Shown: positions 7,249 to 50,540 of the stretch, piece by piece
Layout: the number at the start of each line of letters is the position of its first letter
Numbering within the stretch: position 1 is the stretch's first letter
Virus record (IMG/VR): IMGVR_UViG_3300029705_000015
Reading direction: 5' to 3' (one strand)
Length of the DNA: 64,000 nt
Origin: a virus
Lineage: Duplodnaviria > Heunggongvirae > Uroviricota > Caudoviricetes
The notes under the pieces: model-generated
What the model saw: only the letters and a program-made list of their open reading frames with translations
The model's database searches: none
What the model was told of the DNA's origin: nothing
Made by a program: the position numbers and the translations under genes

Positions 7249-8160
7249 TTGAGCAAGTGGGTACATTATCGTAACGGCAACTACAACGTTCATATCAATC
7301 TAAGTGACGGAACTAAGATTCGGGAAAACGAGCTGGATTGCCTTATTCCCGAGTATCCAGAAAGTATGGACATCAAGATTACCAACAAGTGCAATATGGG
7401 CTGCAAGTTCTGTCATGAGAATTCCACTCTTGACGGTTTGCACGGTGACATCATGAATCTTGAATTCATTGATACATTGCAACCTTACACTGAGCTTGCT
7501 ATTGGCGGAGGTAATCCTCTTGAACATCCTGACTTGGAGGCATTTCTGAGAAAGTGTCAGGAATTGTTCTTAATTCCGAGTATGACTGTGCATCAGAAGC
7601 ACTTTCTGGAGAACATTGACTTTCTCCGAATGCTTCGTGACGAAAAGTTGATCTATGGTTTGGGAGTGTCCGTAAACTCTCCTACTCAGGAAGTTATTGA
7701 TGCATTGAAGGAATTTCCGAATGCAGTAGTTCATGTTATTGCCGGTATTGTAACTTACACTGACCTTGCTGCTCTTGCAGATAATAATTTGAAGATCTTG
7801 CTGTTAGGCTACAAGGATTTTAGACGTGGTGAGGCTCTTCACAAGAGTGTTGGTCAAGCAATTGACGATAAGATTCAAATGCTCTATGATCTACTTCCTA
7901 CAATGAAAGACAAGCATTGGTTCAACACCATCAGCTTTGACAACCTGGCAATCAAACAATTGACTCCTGCAAGACTTCTTTCCGAAGAAGAGTATGACCA
8001 ATTCTACATGGGGGACGATGGAAGTCATACTATGTACGTGGACTGTGTCAACAAGAAGTTTGCAATCAGTTCCACTTCTCCTGTTACATATGACATCCTG
8101 CCCAATATCAAAGATATGTTTGCTAAGGTTCGTGAGGTAAGCGGTCATGATCAGTCTTAA
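7249..8160 (+). CDS. radical SAM domain protein
   Basis: CNMGCKFC (CxxxCxxC) cluster near the N-terminus. TTG start with an AAGGAG RBS. Confidence 0.6.
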   Translation: MSKWVHYRNGNYNVHINLSDGTKIRENELDCLIPEYPESMDIKITNKCNMGCKFCHENSTLDGLHGDIMNLEFIDTLQPYTELAIGGGNPLEHPDLEAFLRKCQELFLIPSMTVHQKHFLENIDFLRMLRDEKLIYGLGVSVNSPTQEVIDALKEFPNAVVHVIAGIVTYTDLAALADNNLKILLLGYKDFRRGEALHKSVGQAIDDKIQMLYDLLPTMKDKHWFNTISFDNLAIKQLTPARLLSEEEYDQFYMGDDGSHTMYVDCVNKKFAISSTSPVTYDILPNIKDMFAKVREVSGHDQS

Positions 8161-8566
8161 ATCATTTGAGCAAATAACAGCTGCTCTTCTGAAATATCAC
8201 AGAGAGCTTCGTGATCTTGAGAACAACTTGAATGTTTCATTTGACGATAACTGGATGGTTCATATTATGGACAATGTTATCAAAGGGCTTTCTTGTTCTT
8301 TTCATGAGGATAAAGACTTTGAAGGGTTTTGCTACAACGAGCTAACCTCAGCACAAGTCTCAAAGATCAATGAGTTCTTACAATACTTTGTATATGCGTG
8401 GGAATGTGGCGAGGAGCCTCCTGCTTGGATTGTATACGAAAGATACAATGTTCTTGAGGGTCCCTTGAAGCTAGAATGCCGTTGTCAGTATGATGCATAC
8501 GAAATCATTAAAGACTTCCTTGAGCATCCTCAAGACGATATTACATGGAGGCTTGAAGACATATGA
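8147..8566 (+). CDS. hypothetical protein
   Basis: ORF with a start overlap to the upstream gene. Confidence 0.45.
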   Translation: MISLKSFEQITAALLKYHRELRDLENNLNVSFDDNWMVHIMDNVIKGLSCSFHEDKDFEGFCYNELTSAQVSKINEFLQYFVYAWECGEEPPAWIVYERYNVLEGPLKLECRCQYDAYEIIKDFLEHPQDDITWRLEDI

Positions 8567-9051
8567 ATGTAATTTTTCTTGACATTGATGGTGTCCTCAA
8601 CAGCCAAACAACAGAAGAAAGATGCAACGGAGTAATCGGCATTGATGATGACAAAGTTGCTCGTCTAGCAGCAATTGTGGATAAAAATGATGCAATCTTG
8701 ATTTTAACTTCTTCCTGGAGATATCATTGGTGGAAGAAAGAAAAAGAGGATGACGAACAACACCCTCTTGGTGAATACTTGGATAAGAAACTTGCAAGTT
8801 ACTGCATAAAGATTACAGATAAGATTTCTTACGGTGGGTTCAACAGAGGAAGAGCAATTCGGAATTGGCTCAAAGAACATCCAGAAGTTTCTGCGTTTAT
8901 TGTTCTTGATGATGAAGAATTTGATTACAGAGAGGATGATGTTTGGCTAATTCCCTATCTTGTAAAAACGTCATTCTATTCTGATCTTGGAGGTCTACAA
9001 GAAACTCATGTATTTGTAGCCAACAAGTTATTCAGAAAACAAGTTGATTGA
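8563..9051 (+). CDS. HAD superfamily hydrolase (phosphatase-like)
   Basis: Motif I FLDIDGVL at the N-terminus and LDDEEF near the C-terminus. Confidence 0.55.
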   Translation: MNVIFLDIDGVLNSQTTEERCNGVIGIDDDKVARLAAIVDKNDAILILTSSWRYHWWKKEKEDDEQHPLGEYLDKKLASYCIKITDKISYGGFNRGRAIRNWLKEHPEVSAFIVLDDEEFDYREDDVWLIPYLVKTSFYSDLGGLQETHVFVANKLFRKQVD

Positions 9052-11156: not shown

Positions 11157-11926
11157 ATGGTTGTTAAAAAATTGATATGTGAGTACTGCGGTGTTGAAAT
11201 TTCAGTCTCTAACTACAGTAAACACATTCGACGACATGAGAAACATCCTGAATCTTTCGAGACTCCAAAATATCAGATCAAACATGAGGGCTTGAATTGT
11301 TCATTCTGTGGAAAATTATGTAAGAATCGAAATAGTTTAAGTAATCATGAAAGACTTTGTAGATTAAATCCTGATAGGAAAGCCAGTGCACTTGAACGTT
11401 ACAATATCTCCGATCATCAAGTTTGGAATAAGGGGTTAACAGTAGAGAGTGACGAACGTGTTAAACAACACGCATTGAGTCGAAAAGGAAGAGAAGGAAC
11501 ATTCAAAGGTAAGCATCATTCTGATTCAGCAAAACAAAAACTTCGGGAAGCAAGACTAAATTATTTATCTGATAATCCAGATAAGGTTCCATATCTGCTT
11601 AATCACTCCTCAAAACAAGTTATCCTGAATTATATTTTTCGGAGTTATTTGAAATTGAGGATATTCCACTCAAACATCATAAACAGATTTCCTACTACCA
11701 GTTAGATTTCTACAATGATGAATGTATGCTTGATATTGAAATTGATGGTGAGCAACACTATGTGGACGAACGAATTGTTGAAAGTGATAAAAGACGATCT
11801 AGATATCTAGAGGATCTTGGTTGGACAGTTTTTAGAATTCGATGGTCTGAGTATCAAAGAATGTCATTACAAGAGAAGCAAGAAGTTGTTAATCACATTA
11901 AAAAACTAATAGATATGCGGCGCTAG
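11157..11926 (+). pseudogene. homing endonuclease-like gene, frameshifted (N-terminal zinc fingers with NUMOD3 motifs; C-terminal DUF559/Vsr-like PD-(D/E)xK nuclease in the -1 frame)
   Basis: ORF 11157-11705 has C2H2-like CxxC..H..H fingers and NUMOD3-like motifs (WNKGL, GKHHSDSAKQKLREA). Its tail is nonsense, and frame -1 from ~11603 encodes YYQLDFYNDECMLDIEIDGEQH...GWTVFRIRW, a DUF559-like domain. Confidence 0.55.
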
Positions 11927-12701: not shown

Positions 12702-12793
12702 AGGGGTGTCGCATAGTGGCGATTGCAGCGGTCTCCAAAACCGCCGAGTACTGATCATGCTCCACCTAGGTTCGAGTCCTAGCGCCCCTGCCA
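12702..12793 (+). tRNA. type II tRNA with anticodon CCA (Trp codon reader), isotype uncertain
   Basis: Acceptor AGGGGTG/CGCCCCT, anticodon arm GCGGT-CTCCAAA-ACCGC, 20-nt variable arm hairpin, T-arm CTAGG-TTCGAGT-CCTAG and CCA. Confidence 0.5.
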
Positions 12794-13625: not shown

Positions 13626-13914
13626 GAAATTTTCTGCTGCGGAGAAACATTTCCAAGAAAAGGAAATTAAACTCCGCAAAGATATCCAGTACTGGCAAGA
13701 ACTTGCAATTCAACGAGCCGCACATATCAAGGAACTTGAAGCAGCTCTTAAGTCTGCAAATAGTACTGTTGAACAACAAAGAGACTGGATTGAGCGTCTC
13801 TTACAATATACTGAGCTGAGTCCCGAAGATATCAAGGCTGCTTGTGAGAAAGATAAAGCAATGGCAGCATGTGCGGACTTAATCTTAGGTGCAAGTAGCT
13901 TCTGGAGGTTCTAA
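13609..13914 (+). CDS. hypothetical coiled-coil protein
   Basis: ORF overlapping the upstream gene's end. Confidence 0.4.
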   Translation: MIVKGKKFSAAEKHFQEKEIKLRKDIQYWQELAIQRAAHIKELEAALKSANSTVEQQRDWIERLLQYTELSPEDIKAACEKDKAMAACADLILGASSFWRF

Positions 13915-22058: not shown

Positions 22059-22136
22059 CCTTCAATGGTGCAGTTGGTAGACACCGCCTTGCTATGGAAA
22101 GGCGTTGCGTTGGTTCGAGTCCAACTTGATGGACCA
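22059..22136 (+). tRNA. tRNA-like with an 8-nt anticodon loop (aberrant or pseudo tRNA)
   Basis: Acceptor CCTTCAA/TTGATGG has one mismatch. The anticodon stem CGCCTT/AAGGCG carries an 8-nt loop GCTATGGA. T-arm GTTGG-TTCGAGT-CCAAC and CCA are present. Confidence 0.3.
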
Positions 22137-23027: not shown

Positions 23028-23213
23028 CAGTTTTCTGTTAGCTGTATAAAACAGTTTGATTAGACGCTAAGTTGCAAGTCGCTTAGCAGCGAGTGAAGGC
23101 TTGCCGAAGAGTACAACTTGCATGAATGATTTGAAGAGGTAATTGCACTTCTTGTTGTTCTATGTAAGCCAGTTAGTTGACTCCACACCATTGATGGACT
23201 AGATGGTATCAAG

Positions 23214-23242
23214 TTGATCATTTCGTAGTATAACTATATAAT
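23214..23242 (+). promoter_or_regulatory. sigma70-like promoter (TTGATC-17-TATAAT)
   Basis: Conserved motif upstream of the tRNA fragment and tRNA. Confidence 0.4.
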
Positions 23243-23256
23243 CACTTTATAGATAA

Positions 23257-23282
23257 GCCCGTGTGGTGGAATAGGTAGACAC
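23257..23282 (+). other. tRNA 5' fragment (acceptor plus D-arm only)
   Basis: GCCCGTG-TG-GTGGAATAGGTAGACAC with no downstream anticodon or T arms. The D-arm is identical to the fragment at 12635-12654. Confidence 0.4.
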
Positions 23283-23321
23283 TTTAATCTTTCGTTGTAT
23301 ATATTACTATAAAATAAATTT

Positions 23322-23458
23322 GGCCCAATGGTGGAATTGGTAGACACAAGGGACTTGTTGGATGCCAGTGCTAATCGAGTAGGGGCAGCACCTACATCCG
23401 ACACCAAAAATCCCTCGCTGGAGACAGCGTACCGGTTCGAGTCCGGTTTGGGCCACCA
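23322..23458 (+). tRNA. type II tRNA (Ser-TGA or Leu-TAA like) with a ~50-nt structured insertion in the anticodon loop
   Basis: Acceptor GGCCCAA/TTGGGCC-A-CCA, D-arm and anticodon stem AGGGA/TCCCT. The loop region 23354-23410 is 57 nt and has an internal helix TTGGATG...CATCCGA. Variable arm CGCTG-GAGA-CAGCG and T-arm ACCGG-TTCGAGT-CCGGT follow. Confidence 0.5.
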
Positions 23459-23472
23459 GAAAGATCAATAGT

Positions 23473-24393
23473 ATGAGTACAAAAGAAGATTATAACTTAT
23501 CTAGACCAAGAATTGCGTGTCCTCATTGTGGTCGAGGAATAACAAAAGCTTGTTATGATCGGCATGTTTCAGTTTGTTTGAAAAATCAGTCACAGATCCA
23601 AAGAGAGTCTTACAAGTTAGATCATGATGGTTTGAATTGTAAGTTCTGTGGAAAGTTGTGCAAGAGCACAAACAGTTTGATACAACACGAAATCCGATGT
23701 AAAGATAATCCCCATAGGAATTGTCATACCGCTTTGCAAGATCATGTTGCTAACAATGTTAGAGGTCAAACAAAGCATACATCTTTGCAGATACGGAAAC
23801 AAAGTGAGCGCTTACAAGATCTGTATGCAAGTGGTGAGCTTATTCCTGCAAGTAAAGGAAAGCCTGGAAGCTTTTCCGGATGTAAACACAGCATAGAAAC
23901 AAAACGCAAGATTGGAGAACATGTTTCTGCGTCACGAAAAGCAGGATATGCTTCAGGTAGAATAACACCAGCAAAGGGTGTTGGTTGTGGTAAGTATTCT
24001 TACATACAGTACAAAGACAGAACGTACATGTTGCGAAGCACATACGAGTTCATCTATGCGCTGTATCTTTTGAAGAACGGTATTGAATTTGAACTGGAAG
24101 CTATTCGAGTTCCAGCAACAAATTCTTCTACTGTTTCAAACTCAACATTCATTTCAGATTTTAGTTACGATAACAAGGTTGTAGAAATCAAGGGAATTCC
24201 AAGCGAAAAAGACTCATGTATAAAAGATGCATTTGAGTCCGCTGGATATACATTTGTAGAACTATTTGAATCTGATATCGCTATCTATAAAGAGTGGCTG
24301 AAATCAAACAATATTCCTATCGATGAATTACTAGTTAAAATCAAAGATCATCATGACAAGAAAGACTATTTTGTCTTCACATTTGATAACTAG
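23473..24393 (+). CDS. homing endonuclease-like protein (zinc finger, NUMOD3 motifs, PD-(D/E)xK-like C-terminal domain)
   Basis: CPHCG/CKFCG fingers, the NUMOD3-like CKHSIETKRKIGEH, and a C-terminal STYEFIYALYL...VVEIKG. Paralogous to 25060 and 31871. Ends at TAG. Confidence 0.6.
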   Translation: MSTKEDYNLSRPRIACPHCGRGITKACYDRHVSVCLKNQSQIQRESYKLDHDGLNCKFCGKLCKSTNSLIQHEIRCKDNPHRNCHTALQDHVANNVRGQTKHTSLQIRKQSERLQDLYASGELIPASKGKPGSFSGCKHSIETKRKIGEHVSASRKAGYASGRITPAKGVGCGKYSYIQYKDRTYMLRSTYEFIYALYLLKNGIEFELEAIRVPATNSSTVSNSTFISDFSYDNKVVEIKGIPSEKDSCIKDAFESAGYTFVELFESDIAIYKEWLKSNNIPIDELLVKIKDHHDKKDYFVFTFDN

Positions 24394-24661
24394 TTGTTTA
24401 TACCAATCGCTTGATTCCTGTAGCGTTTGAAACCGCCAATAATGCGACCCAGCGACTAATGTCGCTGCTAAGTGAGGCGTACGAGGAAAGAAGGGTTGAG
24501 CGATACAAAGCGTCTTGCTTTTGTTACTTTTTCTTCTGGCGCAGAATACTAAAAGTATCCGTAACGATGCAATACTTCCTAAGACGTGACAGGGTTAGGG
24601 ATAAGTAAAATCCGACGACAAATCATGGTTGACTGCTGGAATAGACAGCTATTTTTAACAT

Positions 24662-25059: not shown

Positions 25060-25731
25060 ATGTACATTTGCCCATTTTGTAACAAAGAATGCAAAAATCA
25101 AAACAGTTTAACAAATCATAAACGATTTTGTAAACTCAATCCAGACCATATTATTATGCCACCTCATAGGAAAGGCATTCCTTCATGGAATAGTGGCTTG
25201 ACAAGCAAAGATGATTCTAGAATTCTTTGTGGTTCAGAATTATCAGATGCAGTTAAACAGGGAATGATGAATTCTAATTATATCCCAACAGGACGAGCTT
25301 CAACCGATGAGAAAGAACAACTAAGAAGACAAAAGTTGTCCGTGGTAGCAAAAGAAAGAAACTTGGGTGGATATGTTCCAGGCTCTGGAAGAGGCAAGAA
25401 GGGTTGGTATAAAGGATTTTTCTGCGATTCTACATATGAGTTAGTTTATGTAATCTTCAATCTTGATAACGGTATACCATTCAAGAAATGTCAGAAAGTT
25501 TATCAATATCTGATTGATGGTGAAACTCATAACTATCATCCTGATTTTGAATTAGCAGATGGGACGCTTGTTGAGATAAAAGGTTATCATAACAGTCTTG
25601 TTGATATAAAAGCTGCATCTGTTGTAGATACAAAAATTGACATTCTTTATGAGTCAGACTTGAAGTATGCATTTGACTGGGTTGAAAGTCATTATGAATA
25701 CAAAGAATTATCTGACTTATATGAAAAATAA
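25060..25731 (+). CDS. homing endonuclease-like protein (zinc finger, NUMOD3, PD-(D/E)xK)
   Basis: CPFCNKECKN finger, the NUMOD3-like SWNSGLTSKDDSR, and a C-terminal YHPDFELADGTLVEIKG (PD...EIK) motif. Confidence 0.6.
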   Translation: MYICPFCNKECKNQNSLTNHKRFCKLNPDHIIMPPHRKGIPSWNSGLTSKDDSRILCGSELSDAVKQGMMNSNYIPTGRASTDEKEQLRRQKLSVVAKERNLGGYVPGSGRGKKGWYKGFFCDSTYELVYVIFNLDNGIPFKKCQKVYQYLIDGETHNYHPDFELADGTLVEIKGYHNSLVDIKAASVVDTKIDILYESDLKYAFDWVESHYEYKELSDLYEK

Positions 25732-25889: not shown

Positions 25890-25941
25890 ATGGATGTAAA
25901 CGATAGATAAATTCTTAGATGATTACAAGGAGATGACCTGT

Positions 25942-27603
25942 ATGAGCAAATTGTCTAATGCAGCAATGGAAATGCGTGAAGAGGCAACTCTGCGCAGAGA
26001 CGAAACCGTCGTCAATTTTATGGGTGGTGACTCTTATGTTATCAACCCTCTGGACACCTTGAAGATGATTACCGCGTCTTCTATTTATGGTGAGCCTTCC
26101 TATTATCGGGATAGTGCTAGCGCAAAGAAGACTTGCGGTAAATACACTCTGGATAGTCGGTATGTTACTGACTCTGTTATTCCTTCCGAGTATGAAGGTA
26201 AGCAGACCAATGTGGTTATGGAGGAGGCAATTGATGCCGCTCTGAACTACGATTTTGCAGGAACTTTGCAGTGGGCAATTGAATTGCGTAATGAGTTCAA
26301 TATGCGCTTGAATCCTCAGGTAATCATGGTTCGGGCTGCCCTGCATCCGAAGCGTGCTGAGTTTACTGCAGCAAATCCTGGTGAGTTTGATAAGATCAAT
26401 CAGCAGGTGATGTCTCGTGCCGATGAGCCGATGACTCAGATGGCTTACTACTTGTACAAGAACAAGGGCAAGAAGAACAACATTCCTTCTGTTATTAAGC
26501 GCTCTTGGGCAACTAAGCTGAGTAAGCTCGGCAGATATCCTGTTGCTAAGTACAAGAATCATGAAATCGGCATGATCAATGCGGTTCGTTTGTGTCATGC
26601 AAACTCAGCTGTCATTGATGAACTGATGACTTCTGGCACTGTTGAGGTGTCTGAAGATAAGAAGACTTGGGAGAATCTTCGCTCCGAAGGCAAGTCTTGG
26701 AAGGAAATTTTCCAGACTGTTGATATGGGTCACATGGCTCTACTTCGTAACCTGCGCGGTGTATTCAGCGAGGTAGACGATGTAGCATTCTGTAAGGAAT
26801 ATCTGGATAAGCTGAAGGCTGGTGTTCTTACCGGCAAACAGTTCCCGTTCCGTTACTATGCAGCAATGAATGCTGTTAACAGCAGTAGCAAGTGCAATCA
26901 TCGTTCTATGATCATTGATGCTCTGGAGGAGTGCTTTGACATTGCTCTTGAGAACTATCCTAAGTTAAAGGGCAAGACGATGTGTCTGTCTGATAACTCC
27001 GGGTCTGCTTGGGGCACAATGAACTCTGAGTATGGCACTGTTACAATTGCAGAAATTGACAACTTGTCTTCCGTTATTACTGCAGCTTGCTCCGAAGATG
27101 GTTATGTTGGTGAATTTGGTGACAGACTCATTGTTCATCCTGTTAGCAAGCGTCAGGGCGTCCTGAATCAAGCCAAGCAGATCTCTATGGATCGCGGTCG
27201 TAAGGTTGGTGGTTCCACCGAGGGTGGTATCTGGGAGTTCTTCTACAATGCTATCCAGAACAAGGAACATTGGGATAACATCTTCATCTACTCTGACCAG
27301 CAAGCAGGCCATGGTGGTTTGTATGGTACTTCCACTCAGTCTGCTAAGTACTCCAAGGCAGGATTCGGCTGCGGTAGTGCATGGGGTGGCAACTACATCA
27401 ACGTGTATAAGTTGATCCTGGAGTACCGTAAGAAGGTTAATCCTCATGTTAACGTCTTCTCTATTCAGACTGCAGGTTATGATAACATTGTAATTCCTGA
27501 AATGGCTTATCGTACTGCTATTCAGTATGGTTGGACCGGCAAGGAAGCGGTGTTTGCCTCTGAATACATTCGTCAGTGGAATGACATTGAAAACCGTAAC
27601 TAA
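25942..27603 (+). CDS. Ro60/Rsr-like TROVE domain protein with a C-terminal vWA domain
   Basis: The N-terminal VNFMGGDSYVINPLDTLKMITASSIYGEPSYY matches the Ro60/Rsr N-terminal pattern. The C-terminal MIDAS motif CLSDNSGSAWG indicates a vWA domain. AAGGAG RBS lies 9 nt before the ATG at 25942. Confidence 0.7.
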   Translation: MSKLSNAAMEMREEATLRRDETVVNFMGGDSYVINPLDTLKMITASSIYGEPSYYRDSASAKKTCGKYTLDSRYVTDSVIPSEYEGKQTNVVMEEAIDAALNYDFAGTLQWAIELRNEFNMRLNPQVIMVRAALHPKRAEFTAANPGEFDKINQQVMSRADEPMTQMAYYLYKNKGKKNNIPSVIKRSWATKLSKLGRYPVAKYKNHEIGMINAVRLCHANSAVIDELMTSGTVEVSEDKKTWENLRSEGKSWKEIFQTVDMGHMALLRNLRGVFSEVDDVAFCKEYLDKLKAGVLTGKQFPFRYYAAMNAVNSSSKCNHRSMIIDALEECFDIALENYPKLKGKTMCLSDNSGSAWGTMNSEYGTVTIAEIDNLSSVITAACSEDGYVGEFGDRLIVHPVSKRQGVLNQAKQISMDRGRKVGGSTEGGIWEFFYNAIQNKEHWDNIFIYSDQQAGHGGLYGTSTQSAKYSKAGFGCGSAWGGNYINVYKLILEYRKKVNPHVNVFSIQTAGYDNIVIPEMAYRTAIQYGWTGKEAVFASEYIRQWNDIENRN

Positions 27604-27739
27604 CTAAAGTAGATGGCTGAAGCGGCCGTAACAGTTCCTTCAAAAATAACATCTTACATACTCTACAAATGTTTTCTTTTGAACTCTTTTATAACTTCAC
27701 CTCCTGTTATAAATCCATTTTTTCAAACTGTTACATTTC

Positions 27740-28227
27740 ATTCTCAGCCTTTACATAGATAAACTAGATACTACGATTGTTGATGCAGTTGGTCCAGTTA
27801 CTTCGGATAATAAATTTTACTGTCAAACAAAATTTTAGTTGGTTCAAATCCAACAACGTCTATTGCGGGCGTAAGTGCTTATGCTGGAACAGTATTTCTC
27901 AACAATCTTTGAAAACATAGTTTGCTGATGCAGCTGAAAGAGTTACTTCAAATTTGACTGTTAATCAAAAACTTGAGACCACATATCTCTTTCCTTTATT
28001 CTCAGCTTCTATATAACAATAAAATATCATTTGTGATGCAGTCGAATCAGTTACTTCTTGCTTAGGGAGCACGGGGTCGTGGGTTCGAGTCCCACCTGTT
28101 CGTTTAAGCAGCGACAGTAGCTCAGTCGGGAGAGCACGTACAATAGTATTCACTGGTTCATTTATTCTCACAAATTGTTATTGTATAATATATCATATGT
28201 TTCGATGCGGTAGTTCGAGATACTTCA
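27740..28227 (+). repeat. array of four direct repeats (TGATGCAG-N6-9-(C)AGTTACTTC) with tRNA-like arms; candidate Y-RNA (YrlA-like) genes
   Basis: Repeats lie at 27781-27805, 27926-27949, 28034-28057 and 28203-28227. Each is preceded by TTATTCTCA. T-arm-like GTTGG-TTCAAAT-CCAAC sits at 27838-27854 and GTGGG-TTCGAGT-CCCAC at 28079-28095. A hairpin and a D-arm-like GCGACAGTAGCTCAGTCGGGAGAGCAC follow at 28111-28137. Confidence 0.45.
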
Positions 28228-29694: not shown

Positions 29695-29789
29695 GCTCCC
29701 GTAGCTCAATTGGTAGAGCGGCGGATTTATACTCCGTTTAGCACCAGATTAGTGCAAGGTTCTCGGTTCGAGTCCGAGTGGGAGTACCA
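29695..29789 (+). tRNA. tRNA with anticodon TAT (AUA reader) and a 23-nt hairpin inserted in the variable loop; Asn-tRNA-like backbone
   Basis: Acceptor GCTCCCG/TGGGAGT, D-arm GCTC/GAGC and anticodon arm GGCGGA-TTTATAC-TCCGTT. The variable region TTAGCACCAGATTAGTGCAAGGT contains a GCAC/GTGC hairpin. T-arm CTCGG-TTCGAGT-CCGAG and CCA follow. The backbone is nearly identical to tRNA-Asn at 28747. Confidence 0.45.
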
Positions 29790-30650: not shown

Positions 30651-30729
30651 ACATCCGTAGCTCAGTAGGAATTAGAGCGCTTGACTACGAATCAAGAGGT
30701 CGTGGGTTCGAGTCCAGCCGAGGACACCA
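30651..30729 (+). tRNA. tRNA-Arg (anticodon ACG)-like with a non-complementary acceptor stem (possible pseudo or chimeric tRNA)
   Basis: 5' ACATCCG-TA-GCTC...GAGC, anticodon arm CTTGA-CTACGAA-TCAAG. The 3' side CCAGC-CGAGGAC-A-CCA does not pair with the 5' acceptor. Confidence 0.35.
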
Positions 30730-31870: not shown

Positions 31871-32569
31871 ATGGAGCATATTTATATGAGCGAAGAAACT
31901 AAGTTTCAGTGTGAATACTGTAATAAAATATGCAAAAATGCTAATAGTTTAGCACAGCATCAGATAAGATGTTCTTCAAATCCAAATAGAATTCACTCTT
32001 CCTTTGTTGCTGGTTTTAATACAAAAGGAAGACAAGCTTGGAATACTGGGCGTACAAAAGAAACAGATGAGCGTGTGGCAAAACAAGCGGAACAACAACG
32101 CAAGTTTTATGAAACACATCCTGGAACATTTACAGGAAAGACTCATACTGAAACATATAAGTTAATGATGAGTGAACTTGCTCATGAACGAGGCCTTGGT
32201 GGGTTCAATATGAGAAGCAAGGGCATTCATTATCATGGATCAAAATTAGATTCAACTTATGAGCTAGCTGTTGCTCAGTCTCTTGATGAAAACAGTATTG
32301 TTTGGGAGAGACCAAAATCATTTACATATGTTGGATTTGATAACAAACAACATAGATATGTCCCTGATTTCTATCTTCCAGATTATGACATTTATCTTGA
32401 TCCGAAAAATGATTTTCTAATCAACAATGTTAATCCTGGTCTTGGTTACAATGACTGTGACAAGATTAAACTTGTTGAACATCAGTTGGGAATTAGAGTC
32501 TTAATTCTTGATTCAGAGCATCTTACATGGGACAAGATAAAATCTAAGATTGATGCCGAAGTCCCATAG
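31871..32569 (+). CDS. homing endonuclease-like protein (zinc finger, NUMOD3, PD-(D/E)xK)
   Basis: CEYCNKICKN finger, NUMOD3-like AWNTGRTKETDERV and GKTHTETYKLMMSE motifs, and a C-terminal YVPDFYLPDYDIYLDPK. Ends at TAG. An alternative start is the ATG at 31886. Confidence 0.6.
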   Translation: MEHIYMSEETKFQCEYCNKICKNANSLAQHQIRCSSNPNRIHSSFVAGFNTKGRQAWNTGRTKETDERVAKQAEQQRKFYETHPGTFTGKTHTETYKLMMSELAHERGLGGFNMRSKGIHYHGSKLDSTYELAVAQSLDENSIVWERPKSFTYVGFDNKQHRYVPDFYLPDYDIYLDPKNDFLINNVNPGLGYNDCDKIKLVEHQLGIRVLILDSEHLTWDKIKSKIDAEVP

Positions 32570-32640
32570 CGGCCGATTGGACCGGATTTGTAACCCGGTG
32601 GCTCCTGCCCGCGTCGGTTCGAATCCGACCTTCGGCTCCA
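32570..32640 (+). other. tRNA 3' remnant lacking a D-arm (anticodon TGT-like loop, T-arm, acceptor 3' strand, CCA)
   Basis: ACCGG-ATTTGTAAC-CCGGT, variable region, T-arm GTCGG-TTCGAAT-CCGAC, then CTTCGGC-T-CCA. The 5' GCCGATT pairs only 5 of 7 and there is no D-arm. Confidence 0.4.
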
Positions 32641-33379
32641 TAAAAATTGAATCTTGACAAGTGCATAGTAAAATATATAATCATTGACAACTCAGTGCAG
32701 AACGAATACCATCGTGCTGAGAACTCGATCCTGCCTGCGGGCGCCTGGAATGCGAAAAACATTCACGAACGATAGCTTGTGATAGCTAGAGGGTTTATGG
32801 AGTGATTCATAGATTCCGCCTCTGAACTGAGGTCCAGGATGGAAGGGTGTGCTGACATAGTTGTAATCAAAGATACCGTCTTATCGCTCCCACAATAGAC
32901 AGCTTGGTTAACAGCCGAGCCGAATCCAAGTTAGGTATTAGCTGGTGACTGTTACAAACCTTGGAAAGACCAACAAGGAAGTTTGCGTTGATCCCTCAGC
33001 AATGAGGAGTATAAGATAAGGTCGGAGGTGCGAGTAGCTCAAACGCAATTGACGTAAGATGATGCTGTAAAGAACTTGGATAGTAATAGAAAAAGTTACT
33101 AATATTATCAAAATTTCTGAATGGCGAGTGAAAGTTGCAAGTACCCAATCTTGCATGGGATTTGGAATTACTAGTTGAGAATTTACCGAGTAATCGGTAT
33201 CAGGTCCTATGTTAATTCTGGGGCAAGAAGTTTATGGTGGACGCATCATAGGCTCAGACTTGTCTCCCCATTGATCGAATATGGTTGAGGACTAAACAGT
33301 TGGTAAGGCGAAGGCCTGTTGATGAACTTATATATTTTACTATGTGCTTGTCTGAGTGTTTTTCATTCCTCCTTTCGTG

Positions 33380-34009: not shown

Positions 34010-34284
34010 TACAGTATAAGAGTCCTTTCCGTTGTGTTCCTCGAAATCCAAATCACATCTGTGGATTTTGCGGTACAAACGTAGATGTTAAGTATGCGTA
34101 TGATGTGGAATCATCTGAAAATTATCCTGAAGCTTCCAGGGCAGATGCAACCTCGGTTTATAGTTGCAGTTCTTGTACTCTTAGGAAAATGTATCATGTT
34201 CCTTCAAACCCTCTACAGTATGAATTTGATCTTGGAGATCTCCACTGCAAATGCAAACCTTGCTCGTCAAGAGAAGGAAATTGA
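33994..34284 (+). CDS. hypothetical Cys-rich protein (TTG start; possibly the frameshifted N-terminal part of the downstream gene)
   Basis: Cys-rich ORF overlapping the 34220 ORF in another frame. Confidence 0.3.
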   Translation: MSFGVIQYKSPFRCVPRNPNHICGFCGTNVDVKYAYDVESSENYPEASRADATSVYSCSSCTLRKMYHVPSNPLQYEFDLGDLHCKCKPCSSREGN

Positions 34285-34927
34285 GCTGAAAGCTCGTGAG
34301 GTTGAGATTACCGAGCGTAGATTGGAAGCTGAAGTCAAGAAGACAGCTGACGCACAGAAATATGCTACTCAGCAAGCGGCAGACGCAGAGTTGTATCAAG
34401 CTCAGAAGAAAGCAGATGCGGATCTGTTCAAGCGTAAGCGCGAAGCAGAAGCCGAGAAGTTTGAAGCAGAGCAGAAAGCTGAGGCAACCAAGGCAGAATC
34501 TATTGCAAAGAAAGTTGCAATGGAGAACGAGGCTGCTGGTATTGAGGCTCGTGGTAAAGCCGAAGCTGAGGCAATTCGTGCTAAAGCAGAGGCTGAGGCA
34601 GCAGGTATCCTGAAGAAGGCTGAAGCTATGGAACGCTATGGTGAAGCAGCAAAGATGGATATGCAGTTGGAAGCTGTTAAGGTGCTGTTTGAGAAGTTCC
34701 CTGCAATGGCTGCTGCCATCGGCGAAGGCTACAAGGGTGTTGATAAGATTGTCATGATGGGGTCTGACTCCAATCAGCTGGCAAACAACATCATTGGCAC
34801 TACTACTCAACTGAGTGAGGGGCTGTCTGCAAGCCTCGGGTTTGATCTGAAGTCACTCTTAGCGGGTGTTCTCGGTGGCAAACTTGCCGCTGGTAACTGT
34901 GAATGTGGCGGAAATTGTGACAAGTAA
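34220..34927 (+). CDS. flotillin-like EA-repeat coiled-coil protein (band 7 C-terminal-like)
   Basis: Long AEAEA/KAEAEA repeat coiled coil typical of flotillin C-terminal domains. C-terminal CECGGNCDK. The start is uncertain and there is no obvious RBS. Confidence 0.45.
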   Translation: MNLILEISTANANLARQEKEIELKAREVEITERRLEAEVKKTADAQKYATQQAADAELYQAQKKADADLFKRKREAEAEKFEAEQKAEATKAESIAKKVAMENEAAGIEARGKAEAEAIRAKAEAEAAGILKKAEAMERYGEAAKMDMQLEAVKVLFEKFPAMAAAIGEGYKGVDKIVMMGSDSNQLANNIIGTTTQLSEGLSASLGFDLKSLLAGVLGGKLAAGNCECGGNCDK

Positions 34928-49342: not shown

Positions 49343-49624
49343 GTGAAGTCACTTATTCGTAGTATTGTTATCAAGGTGGCAGTTGCAGTTATTCTTATTA
49401 CTGTGCTGTCTCTGGTACTTAGCGCAATTATGCCGACATTTGGCAATGACATTGCGTTGGGGCAGTTGGAGAACGACGATGTGAGTTTCATGCAGATGGA
49501 AATGTGGAATCGAGTTCAAAACGGAGTTACAACTGTTCAGTACATTATTACAGGCATTTGTGGTGTCTTGATTGGCACCGATGTATACAAATTTATCAAA
49601 TCAAAAGAAACGGAAGGTAAGTAA
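49343..49624 (+). CDS. small membrane protein (possible NfeD-like partner of the SPFH protein), GTG start
   Basis: AAGGAG RBS. Two TM segments. Immediately upstream of the SPFH gene. Confidence 0.4.
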   Translation: MKSLIRSIVIKVAVAVILITVLSLVLSAIMPTFGNDIALGQLENDDVSFMQMEMWNRVQNGVTTVQYIITGICGVLIGTDVYKFIKSKETEGK

Positions 49625-49625
49625 A

Positions 49626-50540
49626 ATGAAGCATATCAAGAAGCTGCTGTTGATTGCCTTGTTGGTGATTACAGTTTGTTCTCTGGCTGGCTGCCGTAAG
49701 CCTTATGACAAGCCGGAATTTGTAACTATTGAAGCATCTCAGACTGCATTCCTGATTCCTCTGGTTGGCGATACATCGGATCAGGGAGCATTTGAGTCAG
49801 AGGAGCTTCTTCTGGAAGCAAAAGTGGCTACGAAGGAGATTCAGATTCCGCACCGTTGGGTCCAGACTGGTCGAAAAGAATATCAAGGTGAATGGCGTCC
49901 TTCTGCAACAGTAATTGTTGTTGAGCGCAAGCCAGTATCCCGTTCTTGGGAGTCTGGCGATTCTGCTGCCGATTCTTCTAACAAAGCAATCTTTGGTGAG
50001 ACAGCTGATAACATCGGCATCTATGTTGGTATGAACTGTACTGCAATGATTGAAGAGAAGGATGCAGCAAAGTTCTTGTATCGTTACAACAATACTCCTC
50101 TGGAAACAATCATTGATACTGATATCAAGAAGATGGTTGAGGATCGGTTCAACATTGAAACAGCAAAGTATCTTTCTACCGACCTTGGTACCAAGAAGGG
50201 TGAAATTATCGAAGCTGTTAAGTCTTATGTTGTTGATTACTTCCAGGATTATGGCATCACGATTACTGTTCTTGGCTTGAAGGAAGGCATCAGTTTTGAG
50301 AATCCTGCCATTCAGGAAGCACTTGATGCAAAGTTTGCTTCTGAGCAGGAGCTGGAAATTCAGCAGAATAAGAATGCAGCGTTGATTGCAAAAGCTGAGG
50401 CTGAAGCAGAAGCAAACAAGTTACTGTCTGATTCTATCACAAAAGAGATTCTTGCACAGATGTACTACGAAAAGTGGGATGGTAAGTTGCCTACATACTA
50501 TGGCAGCGGAGATGAAAATCCCCTTATTCAGGTTCCTTGA
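49626..50540 (+). CDS. SPFH/band 7 domain lipoprotein
   Basis: Lipoprotein signal MKHIKKLLLIALLVITVCSLAGC, an SPFH-like body and an AKAEAEAEA tail. Confidence 0.55.
   Translation: MKHIKKLLLIALLVITVCSLAGCRKPYDKPEFVTIEASQTAFLIPLVGDTSDQGAFESEELLLEAKVATKEIQIPHRWVQTGRKEYQGEWRPSATVIVVERKPVSRSWESGDSAADSSNKAIFGETADNIGIYVGMNCTAMIEEKDAAKFLYRYNNTPLETIIDTDIKKMVEDRFNIETAKYLSTDLGTKKGEIIEAVKSYVVDYFQDYGITITVLGLKEGISFENPAIQEALDAKFASEQELEIQQNKNAALIAKAEAEAEANKLLSDSITKEILAQMYYEKWDGKLPTYYGSGDENPLIQVP

What the first reader, a model, noticed from the sequence alone, without database searches (positions are those of the whole stretch)
23322..23458. Type II tRNA with a ~50-nt structured insertion in the anticodon loop
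All tRNA elements are intact: acceptor GGCCCAA/TTGGGCC-A-CCA, D-arm, anticodon stem AGGGA/TCCCT, variable-arm hairpin CGCTG-GAGA-CAGCG and T-arm. The anticodon loop, however, is 57 nt (23354-23410) and folds into an extended helix (TTGGATG...CATCCGA, GTGCT...AGCAC). Removing the insert would leave CTTGAAA (Ser-TGA) or CTTAAAA (Leu-TAA). At ~50 nt it is far too small for a group I intron. Candidates are a novel mini-intron, a small ribozyme, or an anticodon-nuclease decoy.
Basis: seen in the sequence. Interest (0 to 1): 0.7.

Follow-up and report, generated by a model that had tools for sequence, protein, structure and literature searches.

The report
Mini-tRNA intron inside phage tRNA-Leu
A phage leucine-tRNA gene is interrupted in its anticodon loop by a conserved 50-base insert that is itself shaped like a miniature tRNA ending in CCA, which suggests a route of tRNA splicing that borrows the cell's own tRNA-trimming enzymes.

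Summary
Window 23322-23458 (+) is a class II tRNA-Leu(UAA) gene (Rfam tRNA, 42.8 bits) with a 50-nt insert (23357-23406) between U34 and A35. Intron-less alleles in related phages fix these boundaries.

The insert belongs to a family: 22 distinct homologues, all in phage tRNA anticodon loops. Covariation supports a 7-bp acceptor-like stem, a small CAGU hairpin and a 5-bp arm with a 7-nt loop, followed by one discriminator-like base and CCA. That is a tRNA without its anticodon arm. The inner helix is not supported.

The same element, and longer versions that score as tRNAs on their own, sit at positions 32/33, 34/35, 35/36 and 36/37 of Leu, Ile, Gln, Lys, Glu and Thr tRNAs. The boundaries are always N1 to A76 of the nested fold.

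My inference is excision by RNase P at the 5' site and an RNase Z/BN-like cut after CCA at the 3' site, then sealing by an Rnl-type ligase. None of these steps is shown. At the DNA level the intron travels with free-standing nuclease genes.

No known ribozyme, group I core or BHB motif is present. Lak megaphage papers noted "enigmatic" tRNA introns, one tRNA-like, without a mechanism. This is a new minimal variant of that kind.

The parts
23322..23356 (+). 5' exon of tRNA-Leu(UAA): acceptor 5' strand, D-arm, anticodon-stem 5' strand, C32 U33 U34
   Evidence: Rfam tRNA 42.8 bits. ARAGORN -i. Junction fixed by intron-less alleles.
23357..23406 (+). 50-nt tRNA-shaped intron (nested mini-tRNA, N1 to A76)
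   Evidence: ARAGORN -i. Family alignment A2 and covariation. CM R1 hit of 59.4 bits, the only copy in the window. Removing it in silico gives a standard tRNA-Leu.
23357..23363 (+). Acceptor-like stem, 5' strand GTTGGAT; pairs with 23396-23402
   Evidence: All 7 pairs have double-sided compensatory changes; 97.3% of cells are paired (helix 1).
23364..23371 (+). D-like mini hairpin GC-CAGT-GC (conserved CCAGTG motif)
   Evidence: Pair 10-17 covaries (UA 10, GC 7, CG 3, AU 1) and the C-G closing pair occurs in 21 of 22. The motif is invariant or near-invariant.
23372..23378 (+). Variable linker TAATCGA, in the place of a variable loop
   Evidence: Its length and sequence vary among family members.
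23379..23395 (+). T-like arm: GTAGG / loop GGCAGCA / CCTAC
   Evidence: Of its 5 pairs, 4 have double-sided changes and 99.1% of cells are paired (helix 3). The 7-nt loop is conserved.
23396..23402 (+). Acceptor-like stem, 3' strand ATCCGAC, directly abutting the T-like arm
   Evidence: There is no spacer between the T-like arm and this strand in any member.
23403..23406 (+). Discriminator-like A followed by CCA; the 3' splice site lies immediately after A23406
   Evidence: NCCA is present in all A2 members. C74 was not forced by the search pattern. Nothing of the CCA was forced.
23407..23458 (+). 3' exon: A35-A38, anticodon-stem 3' strand, long variable arm, T-arm, acceptor 3' strand, A73, CCA
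   Evidence: The spliced family forms a cloverleaf with compensatory changes in 19 of 25 pairs.
23257..23282 (+). Orphan 5' fragment (positions 1-26) of an older tRNA-Leu gene; a recombination scar
   Evidence: Read. It is closer to the intron-less L011 allele than to the new gene. blastn of L011 against the window shows that 23206-24409 replaces L011 8975-9077.
23473..24393 (+). 306-aa ORF with C2H2 zinc fingers and a weakly T7-endonuclease-I-like C-terminal domain; a probable free-standing homing nuclease that travels with the intron-bearing tRNA
   Evidence: Absent together with the intron from the close relative L011. Three paralogues lie in the tRNA array and a 38%-identical homologue lies next to the same intron in L273. 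Weak Phage_endo_I and T7 endonuclease I matches.

Best explanation
The insert at 23357-23406 is a genuine intervening sequence in a functional phage tRNA-Leu(UAA) gene. It belongs to a conserved, mobile family of tRNA-shaped introns. Its fold has five parts in order: a 7-bp acceptor-like stem, a tiny D-like hairpin (loop CAGU), a 5-bp T-like arm with a 7-nt loop stacked directly on the acceptor-like stem, one discriminator-like base, and CCA. That is the acceptor/T-arm/elbow half of a tRNA without an anticodon arm.

Both splice sites coincide exactly with the 5' end (N1) and the 3' end (A76) of this nested mini-tRNA.

The most likely mechanism, which is inferred and not shown, has three steps.
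1. RNase P cuts between U34 and G1 of the intron, as it cuts any pre-tRNA 5' leader.
2. A tRNA 3'-end endonuclease cuts immediately after the CCA. Candidates are RNase Z/BN of the type that leaves CCA intact.
3. The two tRNA halves, still held together by the outer cloverleaf, carry 3'-OH and 5'-phosphate ends. An ATP-dependent RNA ligase of the Rnl1/Rnl2 type seals them into an 87-nt tRNA-Leu.

At the DNA level the intron-bearing tRNA gene spreads between phages together with an adjacent free-standing nuclease gene. The intron probably interrupts that nuclease's target site.
For: Shown:
- The boundaries are fixed by intron-less alleles.
- There are 22 distinct homologues with 97.7% of cells paired and 103 double-sided changes. 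The covariation score is 0.937, against 0.243 in shuffles (0 of 500 reach it) and 0.10-0.14 when the partners are slid.
- In the 13 members found without any filter on pairing, the T-like arm is 65/65 paired and the acceptor-like stem 84/91.
- The T-like arm always abuts the acceptor 3' strand, followed by N and CCA.
- The same element sits at 32/33, 34/35, 35/36 and 36/37 of Leu-UAA, Ile-UAU, Gln-UUG, Lys-UUU, Glu-UUC and Thr-UGU tRNAs. In each case removing exactly N1..A76 restores a 7-nt anticodon loop and a callable tRNA. The splice sites are therefore fixed relative to the intron fold, not relative to the host tRNA.
- Longer relatives of 75-77 nt are called tRNAs on their own by ARAGORN. 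Two of them, L291 and L153, also pass Rfam's tRNA threshold at 51.7 and 47.5 bits.
- N-1 is always a pyrimidine (U 25, C 7). N+1 is G in 26 of 32. N73 is A in 26 of 32.
- The spliced outer tRNAs keep a class II cloverleaf with 19 of 25 pairs showing compensatory changes, so the host tRNA is under selection.
- Rnl1-type (PF09511, E 2e-19) and Rnl2-type (PF09414 with the PHA02142 OB-fold) ligases lie within about 10 kb of intron-bearing tRNAs in L153 and L282. The Rnl1 type is also in the L156 contig.
- Relative to L011, the cassette replaces an intron-less gene.
- A free-standing HNH ORF lies directly downstream of the intron-tRNA in six other loci.

From established knowledge (mine, not tested here):
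- Acceptor/T-arm minihelices with a 3' CCA are RNase P substrates.
- Bacterial RNase P RNA pairs with the CCA and prefers U at -1.
- RNase P and RNase Z both leave 3'-OH and 5'-phosphate ends.
- T4 Rnl1 seals exactly such nicks in anticodon loops.
Against: - No RNA data exist. Neither splicing nor any cleavage is shown.
- No RNA ligase, RNase Z or RtcB gene was found in the 64-kb window. The ligases seen are in other phage lineages and are common in large phages anyway (PMC7824862).
- A precise endonucleolytic cut after CCA is not the standard bacterial route. Many RNase Z enzymes are inhibited by CCA, and the host is unknown.
- The T-like loop GGCAGCA lacks the canonical U54/A58 T-loop signature.
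- Members recovered through one search were pre-filtered for pairing.
- Lak megaphage tRNA introns carry an extra 5' module before their nested tRNA. For that variant an RNase P cut alone would not create the 5' splice site.
Confidence: 0.5

Rival explanations
1. The intron is cut out by a dedicated protein endonuclease, phage- or host-encoded and not RNase P or RNase Z. This enzyme recognises the conserved CAGU and GGCAGCA loops or the mini-tRNA shape and cuts both sites. RtcB or an Rnl ligase then joins the exons.
For: The two loop motifs are far more conserved than RNase P recognition would need. RNA-repair-type genes cluster around these tRNA arrays: HAD_SAK_2 at 8563-9051, a TROVE-like ORF at 25933-27603, and a DUF2828/DUF7788 Ro-like protein next to intron-tRNAs in 10 of 28 loci. 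Many neighbouring ORFs have no assigned function.
Against: Longer family members have canonical T-loops and lack the CAGU/GGCAGCA motifs, yet obey the same N1..A76 boundary rule. That argues for recognition of a generic tRNA shape. No candidate endonuclease co-occurs with all intron lineages in the flanks I hold.
Confidence: 0.2
2. The insert is a small self-cleaving or self-splicing ribozyme of a new class, with the exons rejoined by RtcB or by the RNA itself.
For: It is a compact, conserved structure with invariant loop nucleotides. Phage tRNA arrays are known to host small ribozymes, for example the theta/HDV-like ribozymes 3' of tRNAs (10.1101/2023.06.13.544163).
Against: No Rfam family other than tRNA matches 23200-23560 at E<=10. 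No nucleotides are conserved around the 5' splice site, and at the 3' site only the CCA is conserved. Family members range from 47 to 129 nt and include ordinary-looking tRNAs. Two cleavages plus a ligation by 47 nt would be unprecedented.
Confidence: 0.1
3. The insert is never removed. Either the gene is a tRNA disabled by a selfish insertion, or the useful product is something other than tRNA-Leu: the released mini-tRNA, tRNA halves, or a decoy for anticodon nucleases.
For: There is no expression data. All host tRNAs found carry U34, which is the class attacked by known anticodon nucleases (the link to anticodon nucleases is my own knowledge). Ro-like proteins and Y-RNA-like repeats nearby show that this phage uses tRNA-like non-coding RNAs.
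Against: The exons are not decaying. Nineteen distinct in-silico-spliced Leu tRNAs were recovered. The 17 of them aligned keep every stem, with compensatory changes in 19 of 25 pairs, and an invariant CUUAAAA loop. The intron-bearing copy is the only tRNA-Leu(UAA) in the window's array and displaced an intron-less one. In silico excision restores a callable tRNA in 23 of 24 cases.
Confidence: 0.12
4. It is a degenerate remnant of the classic group I intron of tRNA-Leu(UAA), which occupies the same U34/A35 site in cyanobacteria and plastids.
For: The host tRNA and insertion site of the window copy are identical (the group I site is my own knowledge).
Against: There is no Intron_gpI hit. At 50 nt there is no room for P3-P9. 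The intron ends in A, not G. The same element also occupies 32/33, 35/36 and 36/37 and other tRNAs. Its covarying structure is tRNA-like.
Confidence: 0.02
5. It is an archaeal/eukaryal-type intron with a bulge-helix-bulge motif, cut by a splicing endonuclease.
For: The intron is short, lies in the anticodon loop, and is presumably protein-dependent.
Against: Both splice sites lie at the base of one 7-bp helix: the 5' site at its first base and the 3' site 4 nt past its last base. In a BHB motif they would lie in two 3-nt bulges separated by 4 bp (sequence). No EndA-like gene was seen. The context is bacterial phage, with ROOL RNA and bacterial-type tRNAs that encode CCA.
Confidence: 0.01

Closest known systems
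'Enigmatic' tRNA introns of Lak megaphages (Devoto et al. 2019, Nat Microbiol; PMC6784885)
   Same: They are introns in the anticodon loop of phage tRNAs. Intron-less alleles exist and the sequences are highly conserved. The tRNA-Thr(TGT) intron 'itself may encode a tRNA'. The listed introns contain a nested acceptor stem and a canonical T-arm. No mechanism is known.
   Different: The listed Lak introns (Supplementary Table 6) are roughly 80-115 nt. They start with an extra small hairpin and an A/U-rich linker before the nested tRNA-like part, and they do not end in CCA. Lak tRNA genes do not encode CCA either. The window element is a minimal 50-nt form with no anticodon arm, conserved CAGU and GGCAGCA loops, and boundaries exactly at N1 and A76. 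The window has about 40% GC against 26% for Lak.
Group I intron of tRNA-Leu(UAA) in cyanobacteria and plastids, and phage group I introns with homing endonucleases
   Same: The host tRNA and the U34/A35 site are the same for the window copy. It is a bacterial or phage setting, with DNA-level mobility linked to nucleases.
   Different: There is no ribozyme core, no Rfam hit and no terminal G, and the intron is only 50 nt. The nuclease gene lies outside the intron.
BHB introns spliced by EndA/TSEN plus RtcB or Trl1 (archaea, eukaryotes)
   Same: Both are short tRNA introns that probably depend on proteins and need a ligase.
   Different: There is no bulge-helix-bulge. The splice sites are defined by a nested tRNA-like fold. 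The expected end chemistry is 3'-OH/5'-phosphate rather than 2',3'-cyclic phosphate/5'-OH. The insertion positions vary from 32/33 to 36/37.
tRNA-like elements processed by RNase P and RNase Z: minihelix model substrates, mascRNA from MALAT1, plant mitochondrial t-elements, and the tRNA-like domain of bacterial YrlA
   Same: They mimic the acceptor stem, T-arm and elbow without a decoding function. Recognition is by tRNA-maturation enzymes (my own knowledge).
   Different: Those elements mark RNA ends or sit in Y RNAs. None is nested in a tRNA anticodon loop, and none needs its flanks re-ligated. Rfam YrlA does not match the intron.
Free-standing homing endonucleases in phage tRNA clusters (T4 SegB) and 'collaborative homing' of an intron with a neighbouring nuclease gene (cyanophage psbA)
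   Same: A nuclease ORF lies next to the intron-bearing gene rather than inside it. The cassette has replaced an intron-less allele. SegB is described in PMC13096335.
   Different: The nuclease families differ: C2H2 zinc finger with a T7-endonuclease-I-like domain here, and HNH in other loci. Cleavage of the intron-less allele has not been tested.

Membership tests
tRNA (Rfam RF00005), class II tRNA-Leu | Cloverleaf scoring above the Rfam gathering score | tested here: met
   42.8 bits against a threshold of 29, covering model positions 1-71, with the insert in the anticodon loop.
tRNA (Rfam RF00005), class II tRNA-Leu | Long variable arm, 3-bp D-stem, A73, and a 7-nt anticodon loop CUUAAAA after excision | tested here: met
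   ARAGORN -i drawing. Identical junction in intron-less alleles. The spliced sequence is called tRNA-Leu(taa).
tRNA-shaped nested intron of phage tRNAs (the family defined here; the Lak 'enigmatic' introns are the nearest description) | Located inside the anticodon loop, with intron-less alleles in relatives | tested here: met
tRNA-shaped nested intron of phage tRNAs (the family defined here; the Lak 'enigmatic' introns are the nearest description) | A 7-bp acceptor-like stem and a 5-bp arm with a 7-nt loop that abut each other, supported by covariation | tested here: met
   (0 of 500 shuffles reach the observed score). CM R1 scores 59.4 bits on the window copy.
tRNA-shaped nested intron of phage tRNAs (the family defined here; the Lak 'enigmatic' introns are the nearest description) | Splice sites exactly at N1 and at N73+3 | tested here: met
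   CAA-ending variants obey the same rule (L009 tRNA-Pro and L138 tRNA-Ile; sequences, my reading).
tRNA-shaped nested intron of phage tRNAs (the family defined here; the Lak 'enigmatic' introns are the nearest description) | Lak-type 5' hairpin and A/U linker preceding the nested tRNA | tested here: not met
   The window intron starts directly with the acceptor-like stem. It is therefore a different variant from the Lak introns.
RNase P substrate | A 12-bp coaxial acceptor/T stack with a 7-nt loop, a 3' NCCA and a pyrimidine at -1 | tested here: met
   These features make the intron substrate-like only.
RNase P substrate | Actual cleavage between N-1 and N+1 | not testable with these tools
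   This needs an enzymatic assay or RNA end-mapping.
Group I intron | P1-P9 catalytic core (Rfam Intron_gpI) and a terminal G | tested here: not met
   No hit at the gathering score or at E<=10. The intron ends in A and is 50 nt long.
BHB (archaeal/eukaryal) tRNA intron | Two 3-nt bulges separated by a 4-bp helix that carry the splice sites | tested here: not met
   The geometry read from the sequence and the covarying structure.
Known small self-cleaving ribozymes (hammerhead, twister, twister-sister, pistol, hatchet, HDV-like) | Match to the family covariance model | tested here: not met
   cmscan of 23200-23560 with permissive filters at E<=10 returns only tRNA.
Y RNA / YrlA | Match to the Rfam YrlA or Y_RNA model; a Ro-binding helix | tested here: not met
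   There is no hit on the intron. A sub-threshold YrlA hit lies elsewhere in the window, at 28044-28162.

The most novel reading that the evidence does not exclude
These elements define a further class of tRNA intron beside group I, group II and BHB introns. The intron would be a miniature tRNA that gets itself excised by the universal tRNA end-maturation nucleases: RNase P at its 5' end and an RNase Z/BN-type cut after its CCA. The halves of the host tRNA would then be rejoined by a phage RNA-repair ligase. On this reading, splicing needs no intron-encoded catalysis and no dedicated splicing endonuclease, and the released mini-tRNA may have a function of its own.
Probability: 0.4. Interest if true: 0.9.

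Novelty: new variant of a known kind. Interest (0 to 1): 0.78.

Why it matters
Bacterial and phage tRNA introns are textbook group I ribozymes. Short protein-spliced tRNA introns are considered a hallmark of archaea and eukaryotes. Here a 47-52-nt intron, conserved across many phage lineages and several tRNA species, has splice sites that coincide with the ends of a nested tRNA-like fold.

If RNase P and a 3'-end nuclease excise it, that would be a new and very economical splicing strategy. It would also give phage RNA ligases a housekeeping role beyond repair of anticodon-nuclease damage. And it would explain the 'enigmatic' tRNA introns noted in megaphages in 2019.

There is a practical consequence. 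Default bacterial tRNA finders miss these genes. Intron-aware modes misplace the boundaries and so miscall the anticodon: cases I read as Glu, Gln and Ile were called SeC, Pro and Arg. This can distort inferences about phage codon use and stop-codon recoding.

The model can be tested directly with a T7 transcript and commercially available enzymes.

Tried and rejected
- **Exact-helix pattern TTGTTGGATG..CATCCGACA in IMG/VR.** It gave six chance hits in coding DNA and none in a tRNA.
- **Metagenome scan and genome scan.** They yielded only L249 and L273, and no convincing bacterial chromosomal copy. The two bacterial candidates, L324 and L331, are not in tRNAs. Absence from bacteria is therefore not established.
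- **Ro/Y-RNA idea.** I considered that the outer helix (AUCCGA) mimics the Ro-binding helix of Y RNAs, because a TROVE-like gene lies 2.5 kb downstream. I rejected it. The helix sequence is not conserved and only its pairing is. Rfam YrlA does not hit the intron. The phage has separate Y-RNA-like repeats.
- **megablast and blastn against GenBank phages.** No cultured phage carries this intron. One hit, MT840028, is an intron-less tRNA-Leu.
- **Promoter and terminator scan around the cassette.** Nothing exceeded shuffled expectation.
- **Ligase, RtcB, EndA or RNase Z genes in the window.** None was found among about 40 ORFs.
- **Thermodynamic folding alone.** I set that aside because it does not covary and conflicts with two stems that do.
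- **Literature searches.** Only the Lak megaphage papers mention such introns, and they give no mechanism.
Full report
**1. The observation**

- Rfam's tRNA model matches 23322-23455 at 42.8 bits (gathering score 29), with all 71 model positions aligned and a 53-nt unaligned block in the anticodon loop.
- ARAGORN in its default bacterial mode does not report the gene.
- With introns allowed, ARAGORN calls tRNA-Leu(taa) with a 50-nt intron, 'gactt-Intron-aaaat'.
- The body is typical bacterial tRNA-Leu: a 3-bp D-stem, a long variable arm, A73 and an encoded CCA.

The setting is a large phage-like genome. All genes lie on one strand. ARAGORN with introns allowed lists 24 tRNA genes between 9.5 and 32.6 kb; one of these, the 27606-28103 call, is doubtful (see noticed in passing). 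A ROOL RNA (283 bits) lies at 32667-33336.

**2. The boundaries and the family**

A pattern built on the tRNA body and a second one on the exon junctions recovered tRNA-Leu(UAA) genes from other viral contigs.
- Some lack the insert: L008, and L011, a close relative of the window phage whose TROVE-like protein is 94% identical.
- Others carry a 47-52-nt insert at the same place.
- The alignment of both kinds places the insert exactly between CTT and AAAA, that is between U34 and A35. This excludes the Ser-TGA alternative.
- The identical cassette occurs in five independent assemblies, and the identical intron is confirmed in two of them, L433 and L434. It is not an assembly artefact.

**3. Anatomy**

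Read in register from their 3' ends, all members have the same plan:
- 7 nt that pair with 7 nt near the 3' end;
- a short linker carrying the motif CCAGUG;
- a 5-bp hairpin with a 7-nt loop (GGCAGCA in most);
- the 7-nt partner strand with no spacer after the hairpin;
- one base (A in most);
- CCA.

On a MAFFT alignment of 22 distinct introns (A2) this structure scores as follows.

| Measure | Observed | Control |
|---|---|---|
| Cells forming a standard pair | 97.7% | 63.9% in shuffles |
| Cells changed on both sides | 103 | 27.2 in shuffles |
| Covariation score | 0.937 | 0.243 in shuffles (0 of 500 reach it); 0.10-0.14 when partners are slid |

All seven pairs of the long stem and four of the five pairs of the hairpin show compensatory changes. 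The CCAGUG motif is itself a tiny hairpin, NN-C[CAGU]G-N'N', whose outer pair covaries (UA 10, GC 7, CG 3, AU 1).

One caveat applies. The members recovered through one search were filtered for pairing. The 13 members found through the Leu exon pattern were not, and they are 65/65 paired in the hairpin and 84/91 in the long stem.

ViennaRNA does prefer it for this particular copy.

A 7-bp stem stacked on a 5-bp arm with a 7-nt loop, then a discriminator-like base and CCA, is the acceptor/T-arm half of a tRNA. The CAGU hairpin sits where the D-arm would be. The insert is a miniature tRNA without an anticodon arm.

The two loops change together: CCAGUG with GGCAGCA, CAAGUG with GGCAGUA, and CCAGAG with GUCAUCA. 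This hints at a D-loop/T-loop-like contact, but I did not establish it.

**4. The same rule in other tRNAs and at other positions**

A motif scan that did not constrain the host tRNA, followed by a structural filter, found the same element in new places:
- between C32 and U33 of tRNA-Leu(UAA) (L282, L285, L292, L293, L295, L302);
- at 34/35 of tRNA-Ile(UAU) (L278);
- at 35/36 of a CUA-anticodon loop (L289). ARAGORN did not call a tRNA there after in-silico excision, so this host assignment is my reading of the loop sequence alone.

A scanner for any N1..NCCA tRNA-shaped insert whose removal restores a callable tRNA with the junction inside the anticodon loop found 32 distinct cases of 47-129 nt. 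They lie in Leu-UAA, Ile-UAU, Gln-UUG, Lys-UUU, Glu-UUC and Thr-UGU tRNAs, at 32/33, 34/35, 35/36 and 36/37.

Some long ones are ordinary-looking tRNAs.
- L291:13658-13733 is called tRNA-Lys(ttt) by ARAGORN and scores 51.7 bits with Rfam, inside a tRNA-Gln.
- L153:8033-8104 scores 47.5 bits.

ARAGORN's own intron boundaries for these non-Leu cases are off by one or two bases. They give wrong anticodons: SeC, Pro and Arg where I read Glu, Gln and Ile.

Across the 32 cases:
- the base before the intron is always a pyrimidine (U 25, C 7);
- the first intron base is G in 26;
- the discriminator-like base is A in 26.

A covariance model of the minimal form finds one copy in the window. All hits of 28 bits or more in 600 kb of held phage DNA are nested in anticodon loops.

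The key point is that both splice sites are fixed relative to the nested fold and variable relative to the host tRNA.

**5. The host tRNA is under selection**

Nineteen distinct in-silico-spliced Leu tRNAs were recovered. Seventeen of them were aligned. They fold into a class II cloverleaf in which 19 of 25 pairs show compensatory changes, and the loop CUUAAAA is invariant. Removing exactly N1..A76 yields a callable tRNA in 23 of 24 cases. The intron-bearing gene is the only tRNA-Leu(UAA) in the window. The insert therefore must be removed, or tolerated, for a function that constrains the whole tRNA.

**6. Mechanism (inferred)**

Established knowledge, which is mine and not tested here:
- Bacterial RNase P cleaves acceptor/T-arm minihelices that carry a 3' CCA.
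- It pairs with that CCA and prefers U at -1 and G at +1.
- RNase Z/BN-family enzymes of some bacteria cut directly after an encoded CCA.
- Both enzymes leave 3'-OH and 5'-phosphate ends.
- T4 Rnl1 seals exactly such nicks in anticodon loops.

I therefore propose three steps:
1. RNase P cuts at U34|G1.
2. A tRNA 3'-end endonuclease cuts after A76.
3. An Rnl-type ligase seals the two halves.

Supporting context exists. An Rnl1-type ligase (PF09511, E 2e-19) and an Rnl2-type ligase lie within about 10 kb of intron-bearing tRNAs in L153 and L282, and the Rnl1 type is also in the L156 contig. Large phages commonly carry such ligases together with HAD phosphatases, kinases and TROVE proteins (PMC7824862).

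The weak points are these:
- No ligase or RNase Z was found in this 64-kb window.
- The 3' cut after CCA has no identified enzyme.
- The T-like loop is non-canonical.
- There are no RNA data.

I put the fact of a tRNA-shaped, removable intron family at about 0.85. I put the RNase P / 3'-nuclease / ligase pathway at about 0.5. The rival explanations and their weights are given in their own section of this report.

**7. DNA-level mobility**

Compared with L011, window 23206-24409 replaces about 100 bp. The resident intron-less gene survives only as a 26-nt 5' fragment at 23257-23282. It is followed by the intron-bearing gene and a 306-aa ORF at 23473-24393.

That ORF has three paralogues in the tRNA array and a 38%-identical homologue beside the same intron in L273. 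It combines C2H2 zinc fingers with a domain weakly similar to T7 endonuclease I.

In six other loci an HNH ORF lies directly downstream of the intron-bearing tRNA, on the same strand.

This resembles free-standing homing nucleases in T4 tRNA clusters and 'collaborative homing'. Cleavage of the intron-less allele has not been tested.

**8. Comparison with what is known**

- No Rfam family other than tRNA matches the region. Group I and known small ribozymes are therefore excluded as far as models exist.
- The geometry is not bulge-helix-bulge.
- The nearest description in the papers I could search is Devoto et al. 2019 (PMC6784885). Lak megaphage tRNAs contain 'enigmatic introns', and one 'itself may encode a tRNA'. 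Their listed introns are longer, begin with an extra hairpin and A/U linker, and do not end in CCA. No mechanism is offered there or in later Lak papers.
- Nine literature searches in total found nothing on minimal CCA-ending tRNA-shaped introns, their variable insertion sites or an RNase P route. The library is incomplete, so this is not proof of absence.

**9. Verdict**

The 'mini-intron' reading is supported and sharpened, and the ribozyme and decoy readings are not supported. I class the element as a new variant of a known but unexplained kind. If the proposed pathway holds, it would be a new class of tRNA splicing.

Noticed in passing
window 32667-33336 (+): Full-length ROOL RNA (Rfam RF03087, 283 bits, E 7e-64) lies directly after the last tRNA of the array.
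   Followed up: no
window 25933-27603 (+) and 27610-28226 (+): A Ro60/TROVE-like ORF (Pfam TROVE E 5e-4, below the curated cut-off; phrog_850 'RNA-binding protein' E 8e-44) is followed by five tandem copies of a ~35-43-nt unit, tGATGCAG..AGTTACTTC. Rfam YrlA matches 28044-28162 below threshold (30.5 bits). These are probably phage Y-RNA-like RNAs. ARAGORN's 'tRNA-Leu(caa) with 420-nt intron' at 27606-28103 is most likely an artefact of these elements.
   Followed up: partly
window 12702-12793, 29695-29789, 32555-32640 (+): tRNA-Trp(CCA), tRNA-Ile(UAU) and tRNA-Thr(UGU) are 86-95 nt long because of long variable-arm-like insertions. This is unusual for these normally class I tRNAs.
   Followed up: no
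window 22059-22136 (+): A tRNA-like gene with an abnormal anticodon loop (ARAGORN 'tRNA-???', Rfam 33 bits). The L011 relative has a counterpart called with a 4-base anticodon.
   Followed up: no
window 11157-11705, 23473-24393, 25060-25731, 31871-32569 (+): Four paralogous ORFs with C2H2 zinc fingers are scattered among the tRNA genes. Three of them (23473-24393, 25060-25731, 31871-32569) also share a C-terminal domain with a conserved D-F motif, followed by EIKG in two of them, weakly like T7 endonuclease I. They look like a family of free-standing homing nucleases.
   Followed up: partly
window 7249-9051 (+): A radical SAM ORF (7249-8160) and a 'Swiss Army Knife RNA repair' HAD phosphatase domain ORF (8563-9051, E 4e-21) lie just upstream of the tRNA array. 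SPFH/Band-7 (49572-50540) and flotillin-like (34085-34927) ORFs also occur in the window. Together this looks like an RNA-repair-type gene set.
   Followed up: no
window 30656-30720 (+): A partial tRNA match (Rfam model positions 6-65, 39 bits) lies right after tRNA-Lys(CTT). It may be another truncated tRNA remnant like the one at 23257-23282.
   Followed up: no
L137:519-769, L138:12781-12900, L146:5236-5505, L153:12342-12593: A different kind of short insert (37-69 nt), sharing the motif AACAGCAAG(T), occurs in other long tRNA-like genes that pass Rfam's tRNA threshold at 117-142 nt. It may be a second intron class. ARAGORN's anticodon calls for these genes are unreliable.
   Followed up: no
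L291:13658-13733, 11235-11365, 13778-13828: A complete tRNA-Lys(UUU)-like gene is nested in the anticodon loop of a tRNA-Gln(UUG). The same locus has RAGATH-33 (121.5 bits) and DUF3800-XI (43 bits) RNA motifs beside the tRNAs.
   Followed up: partly
L137, L138, L140, L146, L147, L153, L156, L278, L282, L295: A ~520-aa DUF2828+DUF7788 protein lies next to the tRNA array in 10 of the 28 loci examined. I read it as Ro/TROVE-vWA-like, on a weak colinear match to the window TROVE-like ORF (E 0.09). In 9 of the 10 my census found a nested intron in the same locus; in L156 the intron is known from the CM search instead. Cysteine desulfurase, SHMT and deaminase genes also recur there.
   Followed up: partly
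all intron-bearing host tRNAs (census): Every host tRNA found has U at the wobble position 34 (UAA, UAU, UUG, UUU, UUC, UGU, and UGG in L009). About 45% of the window's tRNAs have U34. The cause is unknown. It could be a nuclease target preference, the need for a pyrimidine at -1, or a link to anticodon-nuclease damage and repair.
   Followed up: no
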